NCBI GenBank assembly: GCA_951406725.2
Contig: OX597822.1
Location: 48,360,001-48,424,000 of the forward strand
Reading direction: 5' to 3'
Length of the DNA: 64,000 bases
Source: Octopus vulgaris
Taxonomy: Eukaryota
Below are positions 1 through 61,573 of this stretch, piece after piece; the first letter of the stretch is position 1; each line of letters starts with the position of its first letter. The position numbers were made by a program, and so were the translations under genes. The notes beneath the pieces were generated by a model that was not told the DNA's origin, made no database searches, and saw only the letters and a program-made list of their open reading frames with translations.

Positions 1-2
1 TA

Positions 3-398
3 CAGAGGGACCTAGTATATACATGCGAGGTAAGATCAGGCCCTGACGATAAAAGAAAATCCTACATCGGAATGACGTCAAACAGCTTTAAGACCCGTTG
101 GTACGCCCACACACACTCGTTCCGGCGACCGGATAAATCCAACCAAACTACCCTCGCCGCCCACATCTGGTACCTTAAAAGGAACTCCATCCCCTTCAAG
201 ACCAAGTGGAAACTACTACAGAAGGCGCGTTCGTACACAGGAGGCCATACCTGCTGTGACCTTTGCATTTCGGAGAGCCTAGAGATCTTGTTCGCCAAAG
301 GCCCTCTCCTTAACAAGATCTCAGAACACTCTCCAAATTGCATGCATAAGAATTATGCAAACTACAAGAACTATAGACCTACCCGGCAACCAGATTGA
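3..398 (+). CDS. Penelope-like element GIY-YIG endonuclease, C-terminal part of ORF (runs off the window start)
   Basis: Frame from base 3 reads QRDLVYTCEVRSGPDDKRKSYIGMTSNSFKTRWYAHTHSF...TTLAAHIWYLK...CDLCISESLEI...LLNKISE...CMH. It has the LVY...YIG motif, the Arg in FKTRW, and the CxLC..E..LN tail typical of PLE endonucleases. Open to the stop at 398. Confidence 0.9.
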   Translation, partial: QRDLVYTCEVRSGPDDKRKSYIGMTSNSFKTRWYAHTHSFRRPDKSNQTTLAAHIWYLKRNSIPFKTKWKLLQKARSYTGGHTCCDLCISESLEILFAKGPLLNKISEHSPNCMHKNYANYKNYRPTRQPD

Positions 399-479
399 TG
401 ACACCCCACCCACAAACCCCCCCAATCCCACCGTTCCCCTAGCACCCCCGATTACCTTTTCTCCTAAGACCTTTCACAT

Positions 480-647
480 ATTGTATGTGCACGCTTGTAT
501 ATGTGTATATGTTGTATATGTGTATCGTATATATGTATAGAAATGTATGGGTATAGTAGGAATATACGCATGTATTATGTGTGTGTGTGTGTGTGTATGT
601 ATGTAAAAAAATATATATATATGTATGTGTGTGTGTGTGTGTGTGTG

Positions 648-688
<41 letters not shown>

Positions 689-983
689 ATGCATATGTGT
701 GTGCATATGTATGTGTGTATGTATGTGTATGTAGATATAAAATATTATATAATTAGGGCTTAGTAAAATAAATTACTTTGCCACATACTGAACTTTCTAG
801 AAATAGCAGCCAAAAAAGTTTTTTAGCCATTTCCACTACTTAAAGAAAATTTTCTCTCAGACAATGTTTATTCAAAAAAATAATGGTCCTTTTACATACT
901 GAATACTTGGTGAAATTGATTAATAACTAATTAACTTTACCCTCAATTGTTGATATATATATATATATATATATGTATGTGTA

Positions 984-1018
<35 letters not shown>

Positions 1019-1444
1019 GTGTGTGTGTGTATGTGTATGTGTTTATATATATGTATATATATATATGTATATGTGTGTGTATATGTATGTATATGTATAT
1101 ATGTATATATAAGTGTAGGCGAGTATGTCGATGTATATGTAGGTATGTAAAGTTATGTGTATGTGCATGTATGTGTGTGTGTATACAGATTGTAGATGGG
1201 TATATATATATATATGTGTGTGTATATATACATATATATATATGTATATATATATATATGTGTGTATATATATATATATATATGTATATGTGGGTATGTA
1301 GAGTTATACGTATGTGCATGTGTATGTGTATGTATATATATATGTATGTGTATGTGTATGTATGTATATATATGTGTGTGTGTGTGTGTGTATGTGTGTA
1401 TATGTATGTATATATGTATATATGTGTGTATGTGTAGGTGTGGG

Positions 1445-1480
<36 letters not shown>

Positions 1481-1582
1481 TGTGTATGTATGTATATGTG
1501 TATGTATGTATATGTATATATGTATATATATGTGAATGTGTGTGTGTATGTGTACATATGTGTATATGTGTATATATGTATA

Positions 1583-1633
<51 letters not shown>

Positions 1634-1842
1634 AAGTGTGTGTATATATGTATATGTAAGTGTGTGTATGTGTATGAGTATGTATGTATGTTTGCAAGCA
1701 TGTATATGTATATGTATATGTATATATATATATATTTATATATATATATATATGTATGTGTGTGTATGTATATATGTATGTGTGTGTGTGCATGTGTGTA
1801 TATGTATATGTATGTGTATGTATGTGTATGTATATGTATATA

Positions 1843-1897
<55 letters not shown>

Positions 1898-1952
1898 ATG
1901 TGTATGTGTGTGTTGTATATGTATGTATGTGTGTGTGTATGTGTGTATATAA

Positions 1953-2018
<66 letters not shown>

Positions 2019-2171
2019 ATGTATATATATGTGTGTATGTATATGTATGTATGTATATATGTGTGTGTATGTGTATGTGTATATGTACGTATACGTGTAC
2101 GCTCGTATGTTTATGTATATGTAGGTACGTAGAGTTATGTTTGTGTGTATGTATGTGTACATATGTGTAAG

Positions 2172-2212
<41 letters not shown>

Positions 2213-2591
2213 GTAAGTTTATATGTATGTATCCGTCTGTATAATAGGTAACTGCACGTATATATACTTAATATTTATTATTTATTTTTTGAGTATGCAT
2301 GTATGTATGAACATAAGGAGGCGCGTGTGTGTGTGTGTGTGTATGTGTATATATGTATGTATGTATGGGTGAATGTATGTATGTATATATGCGTATATAT
2401 ATATATATATATATATATACGTATATATGTATACATGTGTGTATATGTATATGTGTATGTGTATGTATATGTATGTGTATGCATGCGCGTATATGTATGT
2501 ATATGTATACGTGTGGGTGTGTGTATGTGTATATATGTATGTATGTATGGGTGAATGTATGTATGTATATATATGTATATATGTATGTATA

Positions 2592-2622
<31 letters not shown>

Positions 2623-2681
2623 GTGTATGTATTTGTATGTAGGTGTATATGTATGTGTGTATATATATATATATTTATTGG

Positions 2682-2712
<31 letters not shown>

Positions 2713-3319
2713 GTATGTATATATATATATTCATTGGTGTATATGTATAGACTAGTCTTCTAAGCTTGTAGACATGAATCTGTAGGTACGCGTACGTATG
2801 TGTATATATGTGAATGTATGTAGATGTATGTATGTATGAATATAACGCGTGCGTGCGTGTATGTGTATGATTGTACGAATGAGTGAGTGTGCGTGCTAAT
2901 GAGTGTGCGTGCGTGAGTGAGTGCTTGTGTTCAAGTAGAAAGATAAATGGACTTGCTGTGGTAGCCAAGACGCCTGTGACCAGCGGTCAAAGATAACAAA
3001 AGTAATAAATGAAGATAATAAAATTAAAATTAGGGAATGGGTCTGTATTTGTATGTATATATATATATATATATGTGTGTATGTGTAGGTATGTATAGGT
3101 ACACATATATATATATATGTATATATATGTATATATATGTGTATATGTATATATGTGTATATAGGGACTTGTGTGTTGTGTGTACATGTGTGTATGTGGA
3201 TATGTGTGGGTATGTGTGTATGTGTATGTGTGTGTATGTATATATATTTTTTGTATGTATATGTATGTGTGGTCGTGTGTGTATATATACATGTGTGTGT
3301 GTATATGTATATGCATGTG

Positions 3320-3364
<45 letters not shown>

Positions 3365-3413
3365 ATATGTATGTGTAGATATATGTATGTATATATATGT
3401 GTATATATATATA

Positions 3414-3444
<31 letters not shown>

Positions 3445-3465
3445 ATATATGTATGCATATGTGTA
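480..3465. repeat. ~3 kb compound (TA)n/(TG)n/(TATG)n microsatellite tract with short unique islands
   Basis: Direct reading; source of the many YI/CV/HT ORFs. Confidence 0.95.
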
Positions 3466-3744
3466 TAGGTATAAGTGAGAATCTCCTTATTTACCTAAAA
3501 CTCTATTCTTCTATATATTTTTTTACTCTTTTATTTATTCTTTTATCTAATTTACCACTGACTCCTTGACCACTCCCCCAAGTATGATATTTTTGCGCTA
3601 TGCCTACCCCCAAAAAGTCCCCCACCACCACCCCTTTAAACCTGCCTAAATGTATAAATGCCAATACAATTCTTGTTAACTAGCTTCCTGAAGATTTCTC
3701 TTGAATGAAACAGTTCTAGTCCTGTAGAAGCTCCTTCTATATAA
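3466..3744 (+). repeat. HHR-bearing direct repeat, copy 1 (Penelope pLTR-like, ~280 bp)
   Basis: Near-identical to 6653-6929 (AGGTATAAGTGAGAATCTCC...GAAGCTCCTTCTATATAAT). Confidence 0.9.
3682..3732 (+). ncRNA. Type I hammerhead ribozyme
   Basis: AGCTTC-CTGAAGA-T.TTC.TCTT.GAA.T-GAAA-CAG.TTCTAGTC.CTG-TA-GAAGCT: perfect 6-bp stem I, intact core, GUA cleavage triplet. Confidence 0.85.
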
Positions 3745-3747
3745 TAA

Positions 3748-3791
<44 letters not shown>

Positions 3792-3836
3792 CTATAAAAT
3801 ATGCCAAGCATATATATATATATATATATATATATA

Positions 3837-5910
3837 ACTTAGAATAACTTAGAAAGGTTTTTGGCCAGTATTGGCCCAGGCCATGTCTAACTTAATAGCA
3901 CCACCTGGCGAAGTCTTTCAGTTCAGGATTTGGGCACCAAGGCCCATTCGAGCAGAGAGTTATTGTTTGCGGAGACATATCCGGGTGTGGATGGTTTGTC
4001 CGGTACTGTTTGAAGGAATTTGTCCAAAGACTTCTTGAATTTTGTGTGGTCAGTTTCTTTTTTGACGTGTCCTGGTGTAATGTTGAAGAGAGCGGGTCCA
4101 ATTGAGGTGAAATAGTTGTGCCGTATTGTCGTTATGTGATGCGATTTAGATTTTTGTTGTGGACGGATGGCACGTGGTCCAAGCCTTGGATGCATTTTGA
4201 AGGTGATGCCAACATCATTCGGACAGTGCTGATGGAATATTTTCCACATCATACAGATAATGTAGCGTTCACGGCGTCGTTGGAGTGAATACAATTTCAG
4301 CTTCTCTAGTCTACCCCAGTAGTCAAGGTCTGACATGCCATCTATCTTTTTTGTGATTGACCTTTGGGGAGCTTCAATTCTCATAATATTTTGTTTTGTG
4401 TAGGGAGACCACAGTGGACAGCAGTATTCAAGGTGGGGTCGGGCAAAAGTGGAGAAGAGAAGGATAATAGCGTGGGAATCTCTCGACTGGAAGGTTCTGA
4501 GAATCCAGGAACACATTCTGCGGGCCATGTCAACTTTGCTGCTTATATGTGTAGCCCAGCTTATGTTGTTGTCCACTGTTACTCCCAGGTCTCTGATGTT
4601 GTTGGATGCCATGAGAATTTCTCCAGAAGGAAGAGAGTATGGGAGTTTCAGAGCGTCCTCCCTTCCAAAGTGGATCAGTTCGAATTTGTCTTCATTTAGC
4701 AACATGTTATTCTTTTCCGCCCATTGGACAACAGCTAGTAGGTCTGACTGAAGGTTTATTCGGTCATCCACGCCATTGATGACCTTCTGGAGCTTGGAAT
4801 CATCAGCGAAGGTTCTGATGTTGCTGTGTTTGATGGTGTCAGTAATATCATTTATGTAGATGATGAAGAGAAGTGGGCCCAACACAGTGCCTTGTGGGAC
4901 ACCACTGCTGACTTTGGCTGGGCTGGATTTGACTCCCTCGACTACAACATGTTGGGTTCTGTTAGAGAGGAAGCGCTTGATCCATTGCAGCAGCTTTCCA
5001 GTGACACCAATATTGGACAGCTTTCTCAGAAGGATCTTATGATCAACCCTGTCAAAGGCCTTGCTGAAATCAAGGTAGATGACATCAGTGTTGGAACCCT
5101 CTCCCAAGGCTCTCAAAATGTCATCAAAATGATGCAGTAGCTGCGTCAGGCAATCTCTCCCATTACGGAATCCATGCTGGTTGGGGTTCAGCATATTATG
5201 ACTCTCAAGGAAGTGAGTCATACGCGATCTCAGCACCCTCTCAAATACCTTGATGATATGAGAGGTGAGTGAGATTGGACGGTAATTCACGGCAAGCGAT
5301 TTGTTTCCTTTTTTGAAAACTGGGACAACAGACTGGGATAGAAGGTCTTCTGGTATATATCCAGCATCCAATGAGTTCCGCCACAGATTGGCTAGAGGGG
5401 GTGCAAGTTGGTTTTGACACATCTTCAAGACACAAGCAGGGAACCTATCGGGACCTACTGCTAAATTATGCTTCATTTCCTTTATTGCTGCTAAGACATC
5501 AGGAGCGCCAAATGTTATGTCCGATAAAGTGTATTGGGGAGTAACATCACTGATACAGCCCAGATCAGTCATATCAGGATTGCTGAAAACAGAGCAATAT
5601 TGTTTCTGCAATATTTCTCCCATGGTTTTGGCATTGTCTTGAAGAATACCATTTTCATCAATCAGAGGGCCAACAGTAGAACCAGTGACTCTGTGTTTTT
5701 TTGCAAATGAAAAGAACACTTTGGGATTGAGTTTGATCTTCTCAATGGCCCAGGCCTCTTCAGCTCTTCGCTGACTATTGATGATAGACATCATGTTGTT
5801 TTGGAGTTTATGTTTTTTAATCTCTAGCGACGAGATGGCAGTCAGGTTGGTGTGTTGCTGTTGACAGTATTTCAGCATGTTGATCTTTTTGTTGATTCTT
5901 TTAATTTTCC
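3837..5910 (-). mobile_element. 5'-truncated CR1/L2-group LINE inserted in (TA)n
   Basis: RT ORF plus short 3' UTR ending in a (TTCTAAGTTA)2 tail on the minus strand; both ends abut TA microsatellite. Confidence 0.85.
3923..5910 (-). CDS. non-LTR retrotransposon ORF2 reverse transcriptase (uninterrupted ~660 codons, endonuclease domain missing)
   Basis: [97 protein letters not shown]. The N-terminal 40 aa of the tracked ORF (5911-6034) are microsatellite read-through. Confidence 0.95.
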
Positions 5911-5939
5911 ATATATATATATATATATATGAGATATAT

Positions 5940-5987
<48 letters not shown>

Positions 5988-6049
5988 GGAGTAAACACAT
6001 AAATGTGAATCAAGGTGGAAAAAAGAGTACTCAAATACCAGTGGTAGAG

Positions 6050-6095
<46 letters not shown>

Positions 6096-6309
6096 TATAA
6101 TATATGCCAAGCATACACATATATATATATAATATATATATAATAAATATATATATATATAACTATAATATATGCCAAGAATATATATATATATGTCGGT
6201 CAGTTGTCCATAATTTAGAAACAATGCACACTATATATATTTATATATAGATGTACATATGTATGTATGTATGTATGTAAATATTATATATATATGTAAA
6301 TGTCTATAT

Positions 6310-6365
<56 letters not shown>

Positions 6366-6556
6366 GAAATGAGGTACTCAGAAGATCGGATGGTTTATAT
6401 TTACAGATATTTATTTATATTTTACTTTTTTTATATATATATCATATCACTTAGATCATTAGCGCTGTCTCCCATTCTAGTGTGGTTTTCAAATCAAACT
6501 ATATATATATATTTATATATATAACTACAATATATTCCAAGCATACATACATATAC

Positions 6557-6615
<59 letters not shown>

Positions 6616-6652
6616 ACTACAGTATATGCCAAGCATACATACATATACATAT

Positions 6653-6993
6653 AGGTATAAGTGAGAATCTCCTTATTTACCTAAAACTCTATTCTTCTAT
6701 ATATTTTTTTACTCTTTTATTTATTCTTTTATCTAATTTACCACTGACTCCTTGACCACTTCCCCAAGTATGATATTTTTGCGCTATGCCTACCCCAAAA
6801 AGTCCCCCACCACCACCCCTTTAAACCTGCCTAAATGTATAAATGCCAATACAATTCTTGTTAACTAGCTTCCTGAAGATTTCTCTTGAATGAAACAGTT
6901 CTAGTCCTGTAGAAGCTCCTTCTATATAATATATTAATTTTACTCTGCTATGTATTGAGTACCTTATTTACTGTGGTTAACCCCGAATCCACC
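6653..6993 (+). repeat. HHR-bearing direct repeat, copy 2, with ~60 bp extra 3' tail
   Basis: Matches 3466-3744, then continues ATTAATTTTACTCTGCTATGTATTGAGTACC...GGGACCTAC into (TA)n. Confidence 0.9.
6867..6917 (+). ncRNA. Type I hammerhead ribozyme (identical to 3682-3732)
   Basis: AGCTTC-CTGAAGA...GAAA-CAG...CTG-TA-GAAGCT. Confidence 0.85.
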
Positions 6994-7000
6994 CGGGACC

Positions 7001-7059
<59 letters not shown>

Positions 7060-7201
7060 TTCATCGTTGATGTTTCAGTACGCAGCAATCGAGATTTTCC
7101 TCTTCCTTCCCTCTTACAATAGACCATTTTCTCCTTTTCTCTCTATCTATCTATCTATCGCCCCACTTTTCTGTTTTATACGGCTCTGTGCATGCATGCA
7201 C

Positions 7202-7266
<65 letters not shown>

Positions 7267-7296
7267 CATACATACATACGTGCATGCATGCACAGA

Positions 7297-7354
<58 letters not shown>

Positions 7355-7487
7355 TTTATATTATTATTTTGCATTTTACTTAATCATCGGTATATTATTG
7401 TTATTTTTTAAAAATATTTCTAATTACGTAATTTTCTAGATTATGTAATTTAATTGTTCATTGTGAATTGATAAGTGTTTTTTTCTA

Positions 7488-7528
<41 letters not shown>

Positions 7529-8056
7529 TGCACGTATGTATGTATGTATGTATGTATGTATGTATGTATGTATGTATGTATGTATGTATGTATGTATGTA
7601 TGTATGTGTGGCTGTGTGTATGTGTGCGTGATTCTGTATATAAAGAAAATCACCCTTAATTCCCTTATATCCCTTATATGTGAAGTTATTACCTTCCCAT
7701 CTACTTTTTCTACACTGGTGAAATTGGTGAAAATCCCATTAATGTTTTTTTTTTTATAGAAATTAACAATAAAAAGATTTACAAGTATTTAACATTGTGT
7801 AATTTTAATCAATTAGAAACCAGCATTGCCGCCATAGCGGAAGTCGCACCTGTCTTTCTCTATAGCAACAACAGATACATAACAAAGTTGAACCCTTTAC
7901 GTGTTAGAAAGAGCAGCCAAATTTTCCTTAATTTGCACCTTAACCTCTGAGAAACAAAATTGACGAAACGTATTGCCACAACACCAAATATGTCTTCGTT
8001 TGAGGCAGGCCCAAATGCTTTCCACTTGTTGTGTGTTATTAGTTAAAATTTTTGAT

Positions 8057-8255
8057 ACTAGGTCAACAATTTTAGGTCAGGGGCTAAGTCGATTACTATG
8101 ACCCCAGTACTCAACTGGTACTAGTTTTATTTATCGACCCTGAAAGGATCAAAGGCAAAGTCGATCACAGTGGCATTTGAACTCAGAATGTAAAGACGGA
8201 CGAAATCCCTTTAAGCATTTTGTCCGGCCCAGTAACGACTCTAGGAGCTCGCTAC
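8057..8255 (-). mobile_element. SINE family A (tRNA head, Meta/MESC-like domain), diverged
   Basis: Reverse-complement similarity to 19763-19978. Confidence 0.75.
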
Positions 8256-8359
8256 CCGAGTGATGAGTATTATTAACATTTGAATTAGGGTCAATCTCAT
8301 CGGATATAATCTGTTACTCTCATCTCACAATCCTCAAAACATTTTCTGGGCCCCACCGT

Positions 8360-8714
8360 CAGCGCTGGATTAAAACATTGAGCAAAATATGCACGTGCTT
8401 AGGGCATCAAGGGAAGCGGAGTACCATAGGAATGGTAAATAATTAATGGCACAAAAGAAATCATTTTAAACTTGTTAAAATAATATTTGAAGTGGTTTTT
8501 ATGATCGGAAATATAATTTCGAAGTGTTAATGGTGTCATAGTGAGGATCTGGTCAAAGTAGAACACTGCTTAAATATAAATAGTGGAAATATATAAAAAT
8601 AAACAATATTTTCTATTTTACTGTTGGTTTTGCCTACATTTTTAATTACATATATATAGGGGGCACCAAAGTCTTTAAGTGCTTAAGGCCTCGATGGGTC
8701 TTAATCCGGTCCTT
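8360..8714. mobile_element. hAT-type MITE
   Basis: Imperfect TIRs CAGCGCTGGATTAA / TTAATCCGGTCCTT; 8-bp flanks CCCACCGT / CCCACAGA resemble a decayed TSD. Confidence 0.65.
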
Positions 8715-8984
8715 CCCACAGATCGTTATTAAATGTACTCTGACTTCTTATGACAAAATTGTGATCACAGTGTAAAAGAAATAGGCGGTGGAGACGGAGA
8801 AAGAATTGGTTACCAATGTTGTTAGTTCATGAAGTGTAATGTTGCTGTTGTTGTTGTTGAGGATGTTATTGTTGGTGGTGTATATGATGATAAATAACAA
8901 TCACATGTGGTGCGTGTGGGTGTGTGTGGATATTCCGTCTCATATTTCATGGCATTGCTGACGTGGGTCTGTAGAGTTTGGATT

Positions 8985-8986
8985 AC

Positions 8987-9058
<72 letters not shown>

Positions 9059-9395
9059 GTCTATCTTATCTATCTATCTATGTGTCTGTCTGTGTGTCTG
9101 TTTGTGTGTCTGTCTGTGTGCCTGTATGTGTGTCTGTCTGTGTGTCTGTCTGTGTGTCTGTCTGTGTGTCTATCTGTGTGTCTGTCTGTGTGTGTGTCTG
9201 TGTGTGTGTCTGTGTGTGTGCGTGTGTCTATCTGTGTGTCTGTCTGTCTGTGTGTCTGTGTGTGTGTCTGTGTGTGTGTGTGTGGTGTGCGTGTGTGTGT
9301 GTGGTGTGTGTGGTGTGTGTGTGGTGTGTGTGGTGTATGTGGTGTATGTGGTGTGTGTGTGGTGTGTGGTGTGTGGTGTGTGTGTTGTGTTTGTG
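8985..9395. repeat. (ATCT)n, (GTCT/GT)n, (GTGTG)n compound microsatellite
   Basis: Direct reading. Confidence 0.95.
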
Positions 9396-10114
9396 CAATA
9401 CATATATACATGTACAATATATGTATATGGCTTGAAGTTTATATGGTCGCTTGTACTCGAGCACATTCTTCGGTTTTAGAACTTGTGCGCAAAGGAAAAA
9501 TATGTTCACACAAGATTTTCATAATGAAATTAAATTCTTTTAATTGAAAAAATTTAAGCGATGTTTACTGGCATTTAGAAAGACTGTTGCCCACTCGCAA
9601 CAATTATGAAGGATATCGGTAATAACAAATTAAAATTCTAGAATGTTTTGCGTATTTCCACAGCTCGATTAATGAGTTTTAATTGCAATTTCTTAATCAA
9701 CTGCAATATTTTTGGTTTTATGAAGCTCAGCTTCTTATTGCGTCGGCGACGTTTTTGTCCAGCCGTTTCGGGGCCGCCTATTTGCGTCGCTGATTTGACG
9801 CCGACTTATTTGCTTCAGATGTTTCAATGTTTCTCTCGTTCTATTTCCCCCTCTCTCCATCACTTTCTCTTTACTTACGCGTGCGAGCATATTTCACTTT
9901 ATGTTAATTGCTAGCAAGGACACGGTGTTTAGTTTTTCAACCATAATATACTCCCAAGAATACGAAAGGTTTACAATTCAAGCTTTACTTTTGTGTTAGC
10001 AGAGCGATGTTTCCATTTTAAAGCTTATCTATACAGAAATAGAAATTTAACATGTTTCGTATATGAAAACGTTTATATAAACAATTGAATCGAATACAGA
10101 AAAAAATAGGCAAT

Positions 10115-10160
10115 GAGTGTATATCCATATTTCAAGAGTTGTTGCATTTTCTTCAGTGCC
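10115..10160 (-). ncRNA. Decayed hammerhead motif (same family as 38696 and 39075)
   Basis: Minus strand GGCA-CTGAAGA-aaatgcaacaactctt-GAAA-TA.TGGA.TA-TA-CACTC; core intact, stems I and II damaged. Confidence 0.55.
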
Positions 10161-10416
10161 ACATCCGACCCATTGACTATCCACCGACGTATTGTTTAAA
10201 TAGCCACTAATTTAGTGATGTAACATTTATTGATTGACTAATTTAAGTATTATGCACATTCCTGGCCGCTGGTACGTACATTTCGTTTTATGTGTTTGAG
10301 GGAAAGTGTTCATGTCAATCGCATTCAATAATTAATAAATTATAGTGTCTCTTTCTCTCCACCACTCCCTCTCTCTCTGCTTCTGTCTGTCCGTCTAGCT
10401 GTCTGTCTCTCTTCTA

Positions 10417-10473
<57 letters not shown>

Positions 10474-10769
10474 GTCTCTAGCTGTATGTGCATATTTCTG
10501 CTCGTGTGCGCACGCTAACTTCCCGCGTCAAAAAGAACTGTAGCTAAAACAAGTTAACTCTTCAGTCAGCTGTGCCATATCGTCAGCGCCAAAACAGATG
10601 CGCCCAACACTCCCGTTCTCATGGCTGTTGCTAAATCTGTTAGTCATATGACCAAATCCCCCCCGATAATCACAGGCATGAATCCGCAGGAGTACACACG
10701 GAGTATTTAGTATTTGTAGAGTTCTCTTTATTTCTATGTCAATGTTTTCGCTTACTTTTTACTTAAAAT

Positions 10770-12153
<1,384 letters not shown>

Positions 12154-12643
12154 TATCTTAACGCATATATATCTAAAATACATGTCTATCATTTAAGGAA
12201 TATAGACCGCTTCCTGGATCAGAGCAGGTTCCTCAACACCTCTGGTCATTATCATCCCTTCTCTATCGTCACGTATTATCCCAAAGGCACCTGTGAGAAA
12301 TCTAGGAATCAGAGCAGCCTAGAGTAAGGTCACGCGTTTGTTGTGACATTGCCTTCAGAGCAGAGTCCCCCGTATAGACGCAAGCGTACTTGAGAAACTG
12401 TTCAAGAACAACATTAAAATTGTTGAAATTTATGCTACACAGAAACATTTCAGTCAAAGAATTATTTCTTCTTTTCAGTCTCATCCCATTGTGACAACTG
12501 ATTACATTGGAACAGTTTCTGAAGGTGAAATGGACGTAGAGAGTGAAGTTACCGGCATTCCCATTTTACGATGGCATCCTGCAAACCCATTTTCAGATGT
12601 TTTGTCCAATGCTGATTTAGTTATCGCTAGTAATGTTCTGCAC

Positions 12644-13009
12644 CAAGGTTCTCAACCAATTTTGGCCAAAGTCCCCCTTTTGACTCCTGGAGTTACAAAT
12701 GGCTCACTGCCTAGAAAATATTTTCATTTTTCAATACACTACTTATTTTGATATCAGCAGATAATGATTAAAAAATAAAAGACATCGTTTTACATATGCG
12801 CTTGTACGCAATCGGGAGTACAAATGTACAAACTGAAATGCAACCCCACTAAAAAAAAAAAACGAAATAATGAATTGAAAGAGTGGTAATTGCGTTTATT
12901 TCGACCACACGACACTTATGAGATCAACGTGTGCTCTTTGGTTAAAGAGAACCCCTTTGCTCCAAAGCGCCCCACTCGAGCTCCAAATGGTCACCGTTGA
13001 GAACCTTTG
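12644..13009. mobile_element. hAT-Charlie-type MITE
   Basis: TIRs CAAGGTTCTCAAC / GTTGAGAACCTTTG; 8-bp TSD TTCTGCAC / TTCTACAC. Confidence 0.75.
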
Positions 13010-13779
13010 TTCTACACAAATACAAGGATGTCAATCAGGTGATGACGAACATCTGTCACGTTCTGAACAGTGGTAAATTTCAGTACAGATTCTCAAGGCG
13101 TGGCAGTATAGTAGAAGCTTGCTTCCCAACCTCGCTCTTTTGACTCGTATCAGCAGTCCCAGCTTTTATTTCGGCAATCTCGACAAAGTACGGTGCTGTT
13201 ATAGTTCAGGTACAATGGCTGTAACTTTAGGGGGTGTATATAAACATTTATCGATCCAATATTTCACTGGTATTTACTTGATCGGCCCCGGAATAATGAA
13301 AGGGCGAAACTTCGGAGGTATCATAGGATCGAAGACAGGATTCGAACCCAGAGCGTAAAGAACGTATCTTAAATATCACACGCATTTTTTGTCCACTTCT
13401 CTCTCGATTCTGCGAATCCACCATTTCGCTTGGGCACGAGGTACCATCTGCTGTAATAAAAACAGAAATATGATATATATGTGTGAGTATATATGTGGCA
13501 ATGTAAGCGAATCTCTGTGTATGTATGTATGTATGTATGTATGTATGTATGTATGTATGTATGTATGTATGTATGTGTGTGTGTGTGTATGTGTGTGTGT
13601 GTGTTTTGTGTGTGCGTGCATCCGTGCGTGTGTGCATGATACTTCGTCGCCAGCCAAGCGGAAGTGTCAGAAGAACATGTGATATCAATTACAGGTGTCA
13701 AGAGAGCGTGCAATATCGGTTATGTGCGACCAACCGTAAACAAACGGCCATATTGGTTGTTTTCATTGTTGCTATTGAT

Positions 13780-13951
13780 ATTGTTGTTGTTGTTGTCGTC
13801 GTCGTCCTCGCCTTTGTTATTGTTGTATCAAGGGATGCTGTGGTTGTTATTGTTGTTGTTGTTACCGGTTTGCTGTTTTTTTCTTTTTCTATTTTTTTTT
13901 ATCTTCTCCGGCCGTGATTTGTTCTTGTTGCTTCCGTCGTCGCTGTCCTTG

Positions 13952-13987
<36 letters not shown>

Positions 13988-14226
13988 AACTACTGCTGCT
14001 GCTACTGCTACTGCTGCTTCTGCTGCTGCTTCTGCATCTGCTTCTACTGCTACTACTGCCGCTGCTTCCACTGCTACTACTCTTACTACTACCACTACTG
14101 CAGTAGCTGCCACTGTTGCTGCTGTTCTCACTGCTGCTGCTGTTGCCGCTGCTGCTGCTACTACTACAACAACTACTACTACAACAACTACTACTACTAC
14201 AACAACTACTGCTGCTACTGCTGCAG

Positions 14227-14267
<41 letters not shown>

Positions 14268-14335
14268 GCAGCAGCTGCTGCTGCTACTTCCTCCCCCTCC
14301 TACTCCCACAACTTCCACTACTACTACGATGATGA
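13780..14335. repeat. Trinucleotide (GTT/CTA/CTG)n low-complexity tract
   Basis: Direct reading. Confidence 0.9.
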
Positions 14336-14650
14336 AAGCCATCTCTTCCCCTATTTCTTTTCGTTTTGCATTTCTTTTTTTTTTCGTTCACCTGCTTTTT
14401 CTTTCTGGTTATCTTTCCTTTTAATATTTCATTTTCTTTCCTCTTCCACTTCCTGACCATTTCTACTTCCGGCGTGATAGGATCAGTGGATGCATGACCC
14501 AACGGTTTCATATTGTTAAAACCATATGTTACAGAATTTGACAGAGATTAGCTGCTATTTTTATCCAAGTTGGGATAACTTACTCCAGATTGTTCGTGTT
14601 CGTTGAAACGGTTCGTTATGTAAGGCAAAGTACATTGAAGGATATATATT

Positions 14651-14688
14651 TAGCTGATGATATCAGAATTAAGCCGAAACATGTCCAG
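14651..14688 (+). ncRNA. Hammerhead-like motif, weak stems I and II
   Basis: CTGATGA-tatcagaattaagcc-GAAA-CATG-TC; intact core with palindromic ACATGT stem III. Confidence 0.45.
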
Positions 14689-14783
14689 AGTTGACGCCAA
14701 GGAATAGCCTCCAAAATGAAATACCCCCCCACACACACATGTATTACTTTTGTATGTGTGTGTGTGTGTATACATACATATAT

Positions 14784-15157
14784 ACAGCGTGTCCATAAAG
14801 TCTCTTTACAATTTAAAAATTTTATTACAAAGGCAGTTGACAAAATATCTTAACCAGATTTGTTTTATTGTAATAATTATTTGTTAAAGATTTTAAACTG
14901 TTATTTAATAGACCTCAATATGGCCACCATTAGTTGCGCGAAGCACATCAAGACGGTACTCGGTTTCTTGCAATGTTCGCTGTAGGATAGCCTCATCAAC
15001 GGTGACAATGGCATTATGGATCCTTTGTTTCAAGTCTTTGATACACGATATCTTTTACATAACTCCATAAAAAGAAGTCCAAGAGAGTGATATCTGGCGA
15101 ACGCAGTGGCCATGGAATTGGCCTATCCCTTCCAATCCAATGGTCTGGAAATGTTTG
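14784..15157 (-). mobile_element. Tc1/mariner superfamily transposon 3' fragment (rosa/DD41D-like C-terminus) with one TIR
   Basis: Minus strand TFPDHWIGRDRPIPWPLRSPDITLLDFFLWSYVKDIVY.../DLKQRIHNAIVTVDEAILQRTLQETEYRLDVLRATNGGHIEVY*; terminus TA|CAGCGTGTCCATAAAGTC. Confidence 0.85.
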
Positions 15158-15375
15158 ATTGAAGAACTGACGAACATGCCGTCCCCAAGGGCAAGTGTAT
15201 TAGTTTGACGCTCGGGGAAAATGGAAAAATGTTTTACGTTTCGAACCCACGTTCTTCGACAAAAAGGATTAATAGGAAATAAATAGAGAATGAAAAAAGA
15301 AAAACGTGTTGAGTTCAATGGTCCAACAGTAGTAGCAGTAGTAGCAGATGCAGAAGCAGCAGCAGCAGCAGTAGC

Positions 15376-15433
<58 letters not shown>

Positions 15434-15572
15434 CAAGGATAGCTACGACGGAAGCAACAAGAACAAATCACGGCCGGAGAAGATAAAAAAAAATAGAAAA
15501 AGAAAAAAACAGCAAACCGGTAACAACAACAACAATAACACACACACACACACACGTACATACATACATACA

Positions 15573-15604
<32 letters not shown>

Positions 15605-17903
15605 CATACATACATACATACATACATACATACATACATACATACAATGAAGCAAACATATACACACATACAAAATACTCTGGATACATCATCTGCAGTG
15701 TTCTTGGGATCCTCATCAGATTTCTCCACTCTATTGATTCAGCTATGATCGATTAAGTCATAACTTACATTCCAGCACCAACAAGCCCTGAGTCTTGTGT
15801 GCTTTCTTCATTCAAAGCCGTCAAGTAGCTTTGTTTGCAGTCTCAGTGATGGAATGTTAACCCCAACACTTGCAGTGATACCACACCCAGTCAGATCTTT
15901 GCAGAGTGACTGGCACACAAACACCCTGGCATTCCACTTCAATTGGCTCGCAGTGAACCTATCGGCGTCTTCTTTTGTGTAGCTCCAACTGTCCCTGGTA
16001 TTTAGAAAGCGTTATCTTATGAACCCATTTCTTGTGTTCCTCCCAGAACACGGTCAACGTCCACATGATTATCTGACCTGAGGAATCTGAGATCGTTATA
16101 GCTGGGCAGGGTCCTATTAGTATTCTATGCATTAACAATATCCATGGTTCTGTGAATTGGAGTACGGCATCTCTCTAGCTTTGAAAGAAAAGTAAATACC
16201 ATCCCAGGAAGGGATGGTTTTTACTGCACCGGATGGTTGCCGTGACCATCTCTACAAAACAGAATGAGATGATTTGGATAAGACGCAATGAGGCGGATCA
16301 AATCGCCGGCTGTTTTGACATGCGATTGGGCCAGGCTGCCCACAAAATGAACCTGTTCTGGCGACGATGCTTTTTGGCGATTGCAAGCAAACACGCAAAC
16401 ACATACACTCACGCTGGCAGAAATGCACACACACGAAAACAGCGAGAATGAGAGAGAAAGAGAAAGTGTTTGTGCGTGAGAGAAAGAGAGAGATTATAAT
16501 TTACTAATTGAACACAATTGACGAAATCACTTTCCATCTCCACATACACATAGAGAGAAATATGTTTACACAATAAACAGAGAGAGAGAGAGAGAGAGAG
16601 GGGGGGAGGGAGAACGAGAGAGAGAGAGAGAGAGAGAACGAGAGAGAGAGAGAGTAAGAGAAACATTAAAACATGAAAAATATTAAAATGTTGATGTCAA
16701 ATAAGTCAGCGTCGAATTAGCGACGCTAAGCTTGCAGCGCCAAAACTCTGCTACCTTGAGCATCTGGTCATGGCACCAGCGGTACCCGCAGTCCGCCAAG
16801 GTCTTTAGACACTATTGAGACTGTCATAGAGAGATCCTCTTTGGGCACGCCGAGGGAAGGGGTGGGGAGATTGACGTCTGCTCTGTGTGCGAAGTTTTCT
16901 AGGGCTTGGTGAGATATTGTGGATAACCTGTGTCAGGAATCTGATGTGACTGATGTCAGCTCACCAAAACTTCGACCCTGCAATATGTCTCTTCTGTATG
17001 TTGCCTCTCTTTGTCTAAACTCCTTGTCCGTTAAGCCCACTATCCTGCTAACCCGAAGATCCTCTACACCTGCACACACTTCTTTTTCGTGAGGTTGCTA
17101 TCACTTCTTTTCATTTGACTCCATCGGTCAGATAGCTTGGAAGGTAATCTAGGTCTCGACTCCTTAACGTCACAATACCAACAGACGCCTTCTGCTTTAA
17201 AAATTCCTGTGTCACATGAAAATCTTCTGTAGCTGTTCATTATTTCATTTTTAACTGCGTGAGTCTCGCTACGGTTAAAATTTAAAAATGGGGACTGATA
17301 AAAAGTAAAGTACCAGTTAAGTAGTGGAGTCGATGTAATCGACTTGCTCCTCCTATCAAAATTGCTGGTTTTGTACCAAAATTTGAAACAATTATTACAG
17401 ACACAGCAAAATTTGAGTGAAGTGCGGTATGAGCCAAATGATATGTGAACTGTTAATGTTGTGTTCTTTCAAGTACCATATGAGTCTTGATAATGTTGTG
17501 CTGTTTCGTTTGTTTCTTTAAATGTTCCCTCACATATTCCGATATATAATCTAACGAGTAGACACGGGAGCTCTGTAAATTAGTTATTCAGCATTACAAA
17601 AAATTGTATAAAAACCATAAATTTAAACTTTAGCAGCAGCAATTATCTCTTCTGCTTTTATTAATTCTGGCAAGATTATTCTGGTGAATGACCACTGAAT
17701 TAATTACCAGGTTACCAGGTTCTCAAGCTTATTAATGGCTTATGACGCCTATTGAGGTGGTGGTGGGGGGGAGTACCTGCTTTTTGCAACAATGTTTCTC
17801 ATGCTAGTTATGCAATGGTAGCTAACTTTTAAAATTTGCCGGTTTAGAAAATTCTAAGATCTTCGTAATGCGTAAGCATAAATAAATGAATAAATAAATA
17901 TAT

Positions 17904-18050
17904 AGGCGCAGACATAGCTGTGCGGTTAAGAAGTTCTCTTTGTAGCCGTGTGGTTTTGGGGTTAGTCCAACTGTGCGGCGACTTAGGCTAATGTCTTCTA
18001 CTATATAGCTCTGGGCCGGCCAAAAACATTGTGAGTGATTTTGGTAGACG

Positions 18051-18089
<39 letters not shown>

Positions 18090-18302
18090 TACGCGTACGC
18101 ATGCATTTGTTTGTCCCTACCACCGCTTGATAGCCGATGCTGGTTTGTTTATGTTCACGTAACTCAACGGTTCGGCAAAAGTGGTTGATCGATTAAGTAT
18201 CTGACTTTGAAATAAATACTAGGGGCAATTTGTTCAACCAAACCTTTTAGGGCGGTGCCCCGGTATGGCCACAGTTCAGTGACTGAGAAACGGAAAAGAT
18301 TA
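17904..18302 (+). mobile_element. SINE family B
   Basis: Diverged match to 26729-27150 with central (CT)n. Confidence 0.8.
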
Positions 18303-18588
18303 AAGATATTCTATGCATTTCCTTCGTTGTTCCTCGATTTAAAATACGAAATTTTCATTCCACCGAAATTTATATAAAAATGATTATCTCCCTTTCACTT
18401 ACTGGCCACCAGTGTACACAACAAATTTGAACATATATATATTAATCGAAGTGTACAGTATTATATATCCATTACGGCCAGTCTTACCAATCAGTTTTGC
18501 ACTAGAAGTTCAACAGAGGGTTAGATAACCGTCCGATTATGTAATCCCGCGTTCTTCAGAGGTAGCCGTTATGGAATAAAATATGATA

Positions 18589-18646
<58 letters not shown>

Positions 18647-19762
18647 TGTGTGTGTGTGTATATCATTAATTCATTTTAGGTTGAGGCTATGTGAAACATG
18701 TGTCATTTCGTTGGATTTTAGTTTTATTAACTTGGTCTGGTACAGGAATTGCTTTAAACTTAATATTTTCCTTCATATTCATTTCGTTATAGCACAAATA
18801 TTGCAGCAGTTGGTAACTCCATCGAAAATTCTTTGCCTGAGGAAATGTTGGAGATGCTTGTACTAATGTTGCTAACAAAGGTTATTAAGAAATGCTGGGA
18901 GGGAGTTTTGTTAATGGAAAAAAAAAATCACTCTTCGTTCGGCTCACTGATTTATTTTTAGATGACCCAGAAAACTAACTTATGTTAGTAAGTTACAGTG
19001 TTCCTTAAAAGCACTAATTAGGTCATTCCCCATTATACCAAGGATATGTCCATTTGCCCACCATGAGGGAATCTAATGACAACGGTCAAACGGCAAAAAT
19101 TGCAATATTTTGGCCAAGTGATCGGAGCTTAGATTCTTTTAACTCGTCTCCTCTGTTGTTGGGTGGGCGAAAAACGAGCTCGCAGGTGACAACCACGAAA
19201 GCGGTGCAATTATATGAAAGAGAGGACGAAGGGCGGGGTTCAGGTGGAGTGTACAACTACAGCACGTGATCGAAGTGTGGGGCGAGGTGAAATGACTGTC
19301 TGAAGTCTCCGATCCTCAGCCATGGGAGTAGGATTAGTCCCTCACTAGAGTGTTGTATCCACCACAAGGTGCAATCCTGCTTGCGCCTCAGTGATCCCGA
19401 GAGCTGTGACAGCGGGACACAAGCTCTTGGTTGGGCCTTCTATCATGGCCAAGTCAAAGGATTGAGGCCAGACTAATGTGGACCTCCTCTTCTCTGAGAT
19501 AAAAATGGGTTTGTGTAGGGCCAACACCCTACCTAGAAAAATGCAAAATTAGAGAAGCATCGATGACAATTCAAAATCAAAACACCCGGGAGAGGAGGCT
19601 TTTCCCCCAAGGAAGCAGGAAGGATGGTACAAGCAGCGTAGATGGAAAAGAATGGGTCCAACGTAAAAGAAGCAGAAAAGGTAGCCGAGAGCAGTGCAGA
19701 AAAGTTGTCAGAAGGTCAATGTTCCAGAAGGAGCGAAGGGTTTGTGTTGGTAACAGTGTCAT

Positions 19763-19978
19763 GGCGGCGAGCTGGCAGAATCGTTAGCACGCCGGGCGAA
19801 ATTCTTAACGGATTTTTGTCTGTCTTTACGTTCTGAGTTCAAATTCCGCCGAGGTCGACTTTGCCTTTCATCCTTTCAGGGTCGATAAATCAAGTACCAG
19901 TTACATACTGAGGTTGATCTAATCGACTGGCTCCCTCCCCAAAATCTCGGGTCTTGTGCCTAGAATAGAAAAGAAAAG
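19763..19978 (+). mobile_element. SINE family A (tRNA-derived head, Meta/MESC-like central domain)
   Basis: GGCGGCGAGCTGGCAGAATCGTTAGC...GAGTTCAAATTCC (B box)...GCCTTTCATCCTTTCAGGGTCGATAAATCAAGTACC; flanked by ACAGTGTC(C)AT duplication; >15 copies in window. Confidence 0.9.
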
Positions 19979-20131
19979 GACAGTGTCCATGTTTGTTTAT
20001 GTTGGTAACAATGTGAAAGCTAGACTTAAACTCATCTAAGGGGTTCTCAACCACTTTTTACTCATGGATCTTTTTGGTTCCTATTTTACTTGGGTGGACC
20101 CTCATAGCCATTCGATGTTTAAAAATGAAAA

Positions 20132-60311: not shown

Positions 60312-61573
60312 GGGTAAATTGTCGCCATTTTATATTTTTAATTTCGAGCATGTGCATTGTTTGTTTTTGATTTTGTCGACGATACAGTATAGTAGGGTCA
60401 GCTGGGCACCGTCTGTGAGAGAAACAGTACCATGACGCAATTCACTCTGCCAGAAATTTGGACCGGAAGCTCCTATACGAATATTTCAGAGTATTTGGGT
60501 GTCAATCTGTGGACAGTGAAGAGGAAATCGCGAAGAGAAGTGGATGAATCTAATGGTGATTACAATGGTACGGTATCTCGAAAAACTCAAGCTGATCGTT
60601 CTGATGAGGAAAAAAAACTCCGAATTTGTTGGTGAGATCCAGGGCATGATTGACAACGATCGCTCCAATTCAATGAGGTCCATCGCCAGGAACATAGGAG
60701 TGTCTGAGTTTCCTATCAGGTAGATAGGGAATGAAGACATTCGGTATTCCTCATACAAGATGAGAAAGGGCCAATTTTTATCCTAAGCCATCCTGGACAA
60801 GAGGAAAGACCGTACTACGAAGCTTTTAAACAAATTCAAGCATCCTCTCCAAACGAAAATACTTCGTATTTTTTCTCAGAAGAAAAAACTTTCTACCACG
60901 ATCAGATGGTGAACACACAGAACAAGCATTACGTTGCCGTGTCTCCAAGACATGTACTGAGAGTGATGGAAATCAAATATCCAATCAACATCATGGTGTT
61001 TGGAGCAATCACTAGTGATGGTGATGTTATGCCTACATTCATCTTCTCACTCGGCTTCACACTCAACATGGAGGCCAACATCAAGTGTCTGGAGGAAGAA
61101 GTGCTGCCCTGGGTGAAGAAGGTGGCTGCTGGAAAACCCTATGTCTGGCAACAGGACTCTGCACCATACCAAACAAGCAGTAGAACCCAATCATGGATGT
61201 CAGACAATTTCTGCGACCACATCGCCCCTAATATTTGACCACCTAGCTCCTCACAATGCAAACCCCTGACTGTGTGGGGCGCAGTTGAGCGAGAGACCAA
61301 CAAATCTCCTTGTAACACCAAAGATGAAATGAAGGCAAGGATTATGGCAGCATTCACCAACTTAAACAAGGAAACTGTCTAGAAGAGTTGCAGGAGATTC
61401 CGAAGTCGTCTGGAGGCCGTGGTTGAAGCCAATGGCGATTTTATTGAATAAATTTACTTATTAGTTTTCAAGATATTTTTATGTAATTTTGGTAAATGTA
61501 TCTGTCAAAATGAGATTTTATTTTTATTTTCATTTTTGAGTAATTTAGACAGCAATTGATTCACCGCACCCTG
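60312..61573 (+). mobile_element. Tc1/mariner DD37D (maT) transposon, decayed
   Basis: Right TIR ...GACAGCAATTGATTCACCGCACCCTG|TA; left TIR only partial (GGTAAATTGTCGCC). Confidence 0.85.
60432..61451 (+). pseudogene. DD37D transposase pseudogene
   Basis: MTQFTLPEIW.../FFSEEKTF.../IMVFGAITSDG...YVWQQDSAP...*PPSSSQCKPL; 37 residues follow the QQD Asp before the position of the third catalytic Asp; ends RLEAVVEANGDFIE*; several stops and frameshifts. Confidence 0.9.

What the first reader, a model, noticed from the sequence alone, without database searches (positions are those of the whole stretch)
3466..6993. Intact LINE reverse transcriptase bracketed by two identical-ribozyme direct repeats
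Seen: two near-identical ~280-bp repeats, each with a perfect HHR on the plus strand, flank an uninterrupted ~660-codon CR1/L2-group RT ORF on the minus strand. This gives an LTR-like architecture around a non-LTR RT. Simplest inference: a young LINE landed in the (TA)n between tandem Penelope pLTRs. More interesting inference: cleavage after 3726 and 6911 would release a ~3.2-kb RNA antisense to the LINE. Retrozyme monomers with such ends can circularise, so this could be a PLE-mobilisable cargo unit or a source of antisense/piRNA against that LINE.
Basis: partly seen in the sequence, partly recalled or inferred. Interest (0 to 1): 0.7.

Follow-up and report, generated by a model that had tools for sequence, protein, structure and literature searches.

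The report
LINE nested in Penelope insertion scar
A shortened copy of a very common, young jumping gene (a LINE) sits between two ribozyme-motif ends of another jumping gene (Penelope); a mirror copy of the same spot 8 kb away lacks it and the spacer around it occurs nowhere else in this genome assembly, so it is likely an ordinary later insertion and not a mobile unit.

Summary
The parts are real but this is a nested insertion. The 275-bp repeats are pLTRs of a Penelope-like element whose RT and GIY-YIG lie upstream (about 5,400 motif copies). The 'intact' RT is the 3' two-thirds of ORF2 of a young APE-type LINE (about 3,600 motif copies; siblings 99.8% identical; 23 of 28 other copies end in (TA)n). 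Just upstream of the window an inverted arm repeats pLTR1 and the spacer without this LINE (empty (TA)n site), without pLTR2, and with another LINE. Three spacer-specific patterns match only this locus; 0 of 59 LINE loci carry the pLTR. So the cassette has no parent or daughter in the assembly. The hammerhead has all core bases but a family-wide U.U in place of G10.1-C11.1; cleavage and expression were not tested. The oddest feature is that the Penelope insertion duplicated about 0.84 kb of host flank between pLTR1 and pLTR2; this resembles Adineta Pen1 spacers and L1 fold-back, and the scan noted it before in other genomes. Low interest.

The parts
3..398 (+). C-terminal GIY-YIG endonuclease end of the Penelope-like ORF; the frame begins upstream of the window (5'-truncated RT from G000:C9:48359142)
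   Evidence: open across the window edge; Atlas nearest clusters GIY-YIG, score 0.96-0.97; no Pfam hit
399..3465 (+). microsatellite-rich 3' region of the Penelope-like element
   Evidence: landmarks UTRa-c recur in the same order before the pLTR in other copies
3466..3740 (+). pLTR1, tail-less, ends in (TA)n
   Evidence: 100% identical to two other genomic copies
3682..3732 (+). type I hammerhead motif 1 (U.U at 10.1-11.1; palindromic CUAG in loop III); predicted cut after 3726
   Evidence: descriptor scan; dimer helix III -14.2 kcal/mol; cleavage untested
3741..3836 (.). (TA)n and first locus-specific mini-repeat; start of the duplicated spacer
3837..5910 (-). LINE-A: 5'-truncated copy (2,074 bp) of a young APE-RT LINE, short tandem tail, flanked by (TA)13 and (TA)10
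   Evidence: 3 private substitutions against six siblings
5911..6651 (.). rest of the locus-specific spacer: (TA)n runs, mini-repeats and scraps of other repeats; mirrored in the upstream arm
6361..6500 (.). end piece of another high-copy repeat family with Penelope-like inverted, one-tailed copies
   Evidence: 1,201 candidates, others at most 97% identical; contexts
6652..6925 (+). pLTR2, joined to the spacer at a (CATA)n/TA microhomology
6867..6917 (+). type I hammerhead motif 2, identical to motif 1; predicted cut after 6911
6931..7003 (+). the family's 'tail' (leader before the ORF start in full-length copies), then (TA)27 and host flank
   Evidence: L063 shows tail running into the ORF; one-sided in 19 of 19 two-motif inverted loci

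Best explanation
A 5'-truncated copy of a young, high-copy LINE that ends in (TA)n sits in a (TA)n run just behind a Penelope pLTR, and it likely arrived after a Penelope insertion had already built the two direct pLTRs by duplicating about 0.84 kb of its own host flank. Shown: the locus reads left flank, inverted arm (spacer, pLTR, 3' region, GIY-YIG end), 5'-truncated RT-GIY-YIG, 3' region, pLTR1, spacer, pLTR2, tail, right flank; each copy of the spacer holds a different LINE at a site that is empty in the other. Inferred step 1 (about 55%): during the two-ended Penelope insertion the tail-primed cDNA copied pLTR2, jumped by TA/CA microhomology to the left host flank, copied it up to the break and went back onto Penelope RNA; alternatives are a later template switch between the inverted arms (25%) or an earlier solo pLTR2 plus fold-back (20%). 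Inferred step 2: LINE-A inserted by target-primed reverse transcription into (TA)n of the right spacer, LINE-B into the left. The LINE copy cannot move on its own (no endonuclease); the ribozyme bracket is incidental.
For: Empty site: left arm reads mini-repeat-(TA)12-spacer where the window reads mini-repeat-(TA)13-LINE-(TA)10-spacer. Arms differ at 6 of 1,309 non-microsatellite positions; LINE-A differs from siblings at 3 of 2,074. Spacer patterns give 7, 3 and 2 exact matches, all at this locus, controls 0. pLTR motif 5,393 and LINE 3' motif 3,609 exact matches. 23 of 28 other LINE copies end in (TA)6+ within 70 nt; 41 of 41 tail-less pLTR ends and 41 of 52 tailed ends run into TA/CA repeats. 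0 of 59 LINE loci (some overlapping) hold this pLTR within 1.5 kb. LINE relatives beside other pLTRs come in both orientations: antisense L003, L017, sense L168, L169. All 3 pLTRs here share an allele found in 4 of 35 other copies held, favouring one source. L170 is a second locus with pLTR plus duplicated flank.
Against: No read-level check of the assembly and no expression test were obtained. The substitution counts are too few to order events by themselves. LINE-family ends lie within 1 kb behind 2 of 100 pLTR motifs against 0.14 expected for uniform placement, and directly behind 2 of 27 other top pLTR loci; I ascribe this to the shared (TA)n target but did not model it. The way the spacer was duplicated is inferred from one locus; only 1 of 22 other multi-pLTR loci shows a duplicated flank. 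A parent cassette on another haplotype would be invisible here.
Confidence: 0.88

Rival explanations
1. pLTR1-LINE-spacer-pLTR2 is a non-autonomous Penelope cargo unit that was, or is being, moved in trans by Penelope enzymes.
For: Precedent: an NRPS gene and other sequences between pLTRs moved in trans in Adineta vaga (PMC3846280, passages). The order pLTR-cargo-pLTR-tail is that of a competent template if the RNA stays uncut (for the tail).
Against: Spacer patterns match only this locus; the mirrored spacer lacks the LINE and runs on into left host flank; 0 of 59 LINE loci carry the pLTR. A ribozyme-cut 3727-6911 RNA would lack the tail, which marks an RT start site in the one PLE studied in vitro (PMC11167929).
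Confidence: 0.04
2. The locus is an accident in origin but works as a source of antisense or circular RNA: pLTR1 drives a + strand transcript, the two hammerheads cut it as a dimer, and the 3,185-nt product feeds small RNAs against the LINE family.
For: Geometry allows it; loop III can form a dimer helix; pLTRs are thought to hold promoters and Penelope loci yield antisense small RNA in Adineta (PMC3846280).
Against: U.U at 10.1-11.1 and a competing fold; animal PLE hammerheads cleave weakly in vitro (PMC4209133), and the anole one needs protein, with no reads ending at its site (PMC11167929). With about 3,600 LINE copies in both orientations, one locus would add little; LINEs beside other pLTRs show no antisense bias (2 and 2).
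Confidence: 0.06
3. The duplicate pLTR, spacer or inverted arm is an assembly artefact (false duplication or joined haplotypes).
For: The region is dense in microsatellites and near-identical repeats.
Against: The arms differ at 6 of 1,309 positions and carry different LINEs; outer flanks differ; no N in 32 kb; the arms meet inside the Penelope ORF at a 4-nt microhomology, the family's usual inverted layout.
Confidence: 0.04

Closest known systems
Endonuclease-positive Penelope-like elements with inverted 5' copy and one-sided tail (PMC8557442, passages; PMC3846280, section 6 and passages; PMC11167929, parts 1-2 of 4)
   Same: RT followed by GIY-YIG in one ORF, hammerhead in the pLTR, inverted 5'-truncated arm, tail on one side only, TA-rich targets.
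   Different: A ~3-kb microsatellite 3' region, a ~70-80-nt tail, and here an extra pLTR with duplicated host flank.
Pen1_Av of Adineta vaga: 3' pLTR set off by a 0.9-1.5-kb captured host spacer (PMC3846280, section 6)
   Same: Terminal pLTR separated from the element by a unique host-derived spacer of similar size.
   Different: Here the spacer's source is visible: it is the insertion's own left flank, inverted; a LINE later entered it.
L1 target-site fold-back inverted duplication (PMC10191854, one passage)
   Same: Inverted copy of target flank made during insertion; rare (0.3% there, 1 of 22 other loci here).
   Different: 52-220 bp there, about 840 bp here, and enclosed by pLTRs.
CR1-group LINEs (PMC13343379, passages)
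   Same: APE + RT ORF2 in full-length siblings, 5' truncation, non-poly(A) short tandem tail.
   Different: Superfamily not determined here (no reference tree); strong (TA)n target preference; ORF1-like frame with two CCCH-type motifs seen in one sibling.
PLE hammerheads and animal non-LTR retrozymes (PMC4209133, parts 1-2 of 4; bioRxiv 10.64898/2026.07.22.740005, part 1 of 5)
   Same: Type I motif with palindromic loop III, two motifs on one strand.
   Different: No G10.1-C11.1 pair; unit is 3.2 kb, single-copy and made of unrelated insertions, not a tandem repeat family.

Membership tests
EN+ Penelope-like element (host element) | single ORF with RT followed by C-terminal GIY-YIG | tested here: met
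   one open frame from RT motifs (YRDDG) to GIY-YIG-like domain; Atlas GIY-YIG 0.96-0.97; ~700-aa homologues at 40-56%; Pfam gave no true hit
EN+ Penelope-like element (host element) | pLTRs from partial tandems, with hammerhead | tested here: met
   L063: pLTR-tail-ORF-3' region-pLTR-tail, 7,172 bp; motif scan
EN+ Penelope-like element (host element) | inverted 5'-truncated arm and one-sided tail | tested here: met
   this locus; 19 of 19 two-motif inverted loci have one tail
Neptune/Nematis-type PLE | cysteine-rich motif between RT and EN | tested here: inconclusive
   a four-cysteine cluster precedes the GIY-YIG, as described in PMC3846280 and PMC8557442 passages; no tree built
CR1-group LINE (LINE-A) | ORF2 with APE and RT | tested here: met
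   siblings extend into an APE-like N-terminus; homologues carry PF14529/PF03372 + PF00078; this copy lacks the APE part
CR1-group LINE (LINE-A) | RT phylogeny inside the CR1/L2/Rex1 group | not tested
   no named reference sequences at hand; the assignment rests on recalled motif style
Full-length, autonomous LINE | 5' UTR, ORF1 and endonuclease present | tested here: not met
   5' end truncated at 5910 into (TA)n
Non-LTR retrozyme | multi-copy tandem unit, each with a type I hammerhead, non-coding | tested here: not met
   spacer single-locus; one unit only
PLE-mobilised cargo (Pen3a-NRPS type) | cargo has a source locus elsewhere and moved together with the pLTRs | tested here: not met
   source of the spacer is the adjacent flank; LINE absent from it; no second locus
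Canonical type I hammerhead | conserved core C3-A9, G12-A15.1, U16.1-H17 and three stems | tested here: met
   44 of 80 held motif contexts identical
Canonical type I hammerhead | G10.1-C11.1 (R-Y) pair closing stem II | tested here: not met
   U.U in all 80 motif contexts listed; PMC4209133 calls the G-C pair highly conserved
Canonical type I hammerhead | self-cleavage | not testable with these tools
   needs in vitro transcription or RNA ends
LTR retrotransposon / LTR retrozyme | repeats and interior move as one unit; RT on the repeats' sense strand or type III hammerhead | tested here: not met
   repeats and RT belong to different families, opposite strands, type I motif

The most novel reading that the evidence does not exclude
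One Penelope insertion built, by jumping onto its own flank, a ready-made pLTR-spacer-pLTR-tail cassette with a (TA)n landing pad; a young LINE then fell into it head-on, turning the cassette into a ribozyme-bounded transposon trap whose 3,185-nt antisense (possibly circular) RNA silences one of the genome's most active LINE families or carries it as Penelope cargo.
Probability: 0.06. Interest if true: 0.65.

Novelty: new member of a known kind. Interest (0 to 1): 0.17.

Why it matters
As it stands, little: it is a pile-up of transposons in a (TA)n hotspot. It is a clean, datable example of a Penelope insertion that captured its own flank between direct pLTRs, which shows one way the pLTR-host DNA-pLTR units described in rotifers could arise. 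If the U.U hammerhead proved active, it would widen the tolerated stem II closings across thousands of copies; if the cassette proved transcribed and cut, it would be a natural ribozyme-bounded antisense trap.

Tried and rejected
Rfam scan of the window: 0 matches at gathering score. Repeat finder on 1-20000 was swamped by microsatellites. DNA search with the pLTR-LINE junction returned only LINE-(TA)n hits and not even this locus, so it says nothing on other junctions; its loci were reused for the flank test. No genome-wide junction count was obtained; the intersection covers only the first 100 pLTR and 55 LINE motif places on C1 (0-40.2 Mb). Sequencing runs: no RNA holder listed on record, which is no evidence on expression; no reads or contigs were laid, so expression and read support stay open. 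Pfam did not recognise the Penelope RT or GIY-YIG pieces (the VtrA_C hit is below cut-off and rejected). High flank-vs-flank scores at L171 (Penelope arm sequence) and L179 (a common short repeat) were rejected as flank duplications. One of 30 LINE loci (L057) dropped out of the 3'-end count because the anchor motif did not match. A LINE that targets pLTRs was considered and rejected (0 of 59). Paper searches listed no paper on a LINE between hammerhead pLTRs acting as antisense source; only listings were seen for most hits and no supplements were read, so such a case could be in print unseen.

Full report
Observation. The two repeats lie at 3466-3740 and 6652-6925 and differ by one substitution and one indel. 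Each holds a type I hammerhead motif on the + strand with predicted cut sites after 3726 and 6911, 3,185 nt apart. The minus strand holds an open 662-codon RT frame at 3926-5911 (Pfam RVT_1, E 1.8e-31; best solved relatives are L1 and R2 proteins). The genome is 2.8 Gb; a named Argonauta protein among the best RT homologues and earlier notes suggest an octopus, which is an inference.

The repeats. They are the ends of a high-copy family: 1,266 candidates, the 40 scored at 99-100%, and 5,393 exact matches of a 17-nt motif behind the cut site. Upstream of pLTR1 on the same strand lie a ~3-kb microsatellite-rich region and an open frame with RT motifs, a cysteine cluster and a GIY-YIG domain ending at 398. 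L063 shows the full tandem unit, pLTR-tail-ORF-3' region-pLTR-tail, 7,172 bp (that copy's ORF is in three pieces). In 19 of 19 loci with two inverted motifs exactly one arm carries the tail. This is the known layout of endonuclease-positive Penelope-like elements (PMC8557442 passages; PMC3846280 section 6); in vitro the tail lies between two RT start sites and both target strands are extended (PMC11167929 parts 1-2).

The LINE. It spans 3837-5910. The family is young and large: 3,663 candidates, the 40 scored nearly identical over the whole length, 3,609 exact matches of an 18-nt 3' motif that is shared with a related subfamily. Siblings continue upstream into an APE-like domain; this copy starts about 343 residues into a ~1,005-aa ORF2, so it is 5'-truncated, not intact. 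Of 29 loci printed (30 fetched, L057 dropped), 24 have (TA)6+ within 70 nt of the 3' end, 23 of 28 without the window's own; the rest are interrupted TA/CA-rich or a gap. It carries 3 private substitutions against six siblings.

The decisive context lies outside the window. From G000:C9:48359142 leftwards an inverted arm repeats window 297 to pLTR1 and then the spacer. Where the window has (TA)13-LINE-(TA)10 the arm has a plain (TA)12. Further on the arm holds a different LINE (LINE-B, APE + RT) at a site that is empty in the window, and where the window has pLTR2 the arm runs on into host flank. The arms differ at 6 of 1,309 non-microsatellite positions and meet inside the Penelope ORF at a 4-nt microhomology. 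No N lies in the 32 kb checked.

Is the cassette a unit? Three spacer-specific patterns give 7, 3 and 2 exact matches in the whole assembly, all between C9:48352300 and 48366653, controls 0. A 140-bp spacer piece is 100% identical only between the two arms. None of 59 LINE loci (some overlapping) holds this pLTR or tail within 1.5 kb. LINE relatives do occur behind other pLTRs: antisense in L003 and L017 (2 of 27 other top loci), sense in L168 and L169 (2 of the first 100 motif places on C1, 0.14 expected if uniform). That excess fits a shared target: 41 of 41 tail-less and 41 of 52 tailed pLTR ends run into TA/CA repeats. I did not model it against (TA)n density.

How the two direct pLTRs arose (inferred). 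A normal insertion has a tail-less inverted pLTR on one side and pLTR + tail on the other. Here the left arm and pLTR2 + tail fill those roles, and pLTR1 + spacer (837 bp without the LINE) is an extra, inverted copy of the left junction. All three pLTRs share an allele found in 4 of 35 other held copies (the sample is biased towards the allele), which favours one source. I favour a jump of the tail-primed cDNA onto the left flank and back onto the RNA (about 55%), over a later switch between the inverted arms (25%) or an earlier solo pLTR2 with fold-back (20%). L170 shows a second pLTR + tail with about 260 bp of duplicated flank, 1 of 22 other multi-motif loci. Precedents: host-derived spacers before the terminal pLTR in Adineta Pen1 and L1 fold-back duplications (PMC10191854, one passage). 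The scan's earlier notes report the same scar in other genomes (unchecked).

The ribozyme. Core bases, stem I (6 bp) and stem III (4 bp, palindromic loop) are intact; stem II opens with U.U and has 3 pairs. This is family-wide: all 80 motif contexts listed have it, 44 identical to the window's. In context another fold wins by 4.4 kcal/mol; a dimer helix III is predicted at -14.2. Animal PLE hammerheads cleave weakly (PMC4209133 parts 1-2) and the anole one needs protein. A cut 3727-6911 RNA would lack the tail. Neither cleavage nor transcription was tested; no RNA run was on record and no reads were laid.

Verdict. A nested LINE insertion in the scar of a complex Penelope insertion (0.88). Cargo unit 0.04, functional antisense/circle source 0.06, artefact 0.04. 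New member of known kinds; interest 0.17. No supplementary files were read; the bioRxiv retrozyme paper was read in part 1 of 5 and the octopus repeat paper PMC13282606 in passages, which list recently active CR1 and Penelope families but were not matched to these sequences.

Noticed in passing
G000:C1 0-40.2 Mb (one search list); L184-L187, L169, L172: 23 of the first 100 motif places begin a pair of inverted motifs within 300 bp: tiny palindromic insertions made of little more than two hammerheads head to head, one with the tail; the centres seen fall inside or at the start of the ribozyme, not at its cut site.
   Followed up: partly
window 3682-3732 and family: The hammerhead has U.U at 10.1-11.1 in all 80 contexts listed; a common variant makes loop III more palindromic (about 20 of 80), in line with a dimer form.
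   Followed up: partly
L061:2356-4952 (minus): LINE-B has an open 836-aa APE + RT frame with an apparent internal deletion near the C-terminus; its last ~70 bases match a repeat found in most fetched loci, likely an abundant SINE that shares its 3' end.
   Followed up: no
L170 (G000:C1:13116000-13125999): Second locus where pLTR + tail + about 260 bp of flank are duplicated, with a LINE 5' fragment and an inverted Penelope piece between the copies.
   Followed up: partly
L068 / L003 (G000:C5:91811406): A pLTR identical to pLTR1 followed directly by an antisense 84-85% relative of LINE-A; its other arm stops 3 nt past the predicted ribozyme cut site.
   Followed up: partly
window 6361-6500; L083-L100: End of a second high-copy family with inverted, one-tailed copies in (TA)n, likely another Penelope-like family.
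   Followed up: partly
window 13839-14058 and 15327-15546: 220-nt inverted repeat, 94% complementary, 1.3 kb apart, partly trinucleotide repeat.
   Followed up: no
window 60735-61238 (+): 167-aa frame that reads like a Tc1/mariner transposase fragment (recalled resemblance, not tested).
   Followed up: no
L034 upstream of ORF2: Frame with two CCCH-like motifs ahead of LINE-A ORF2, a possible ORF1.
   Followed up: no
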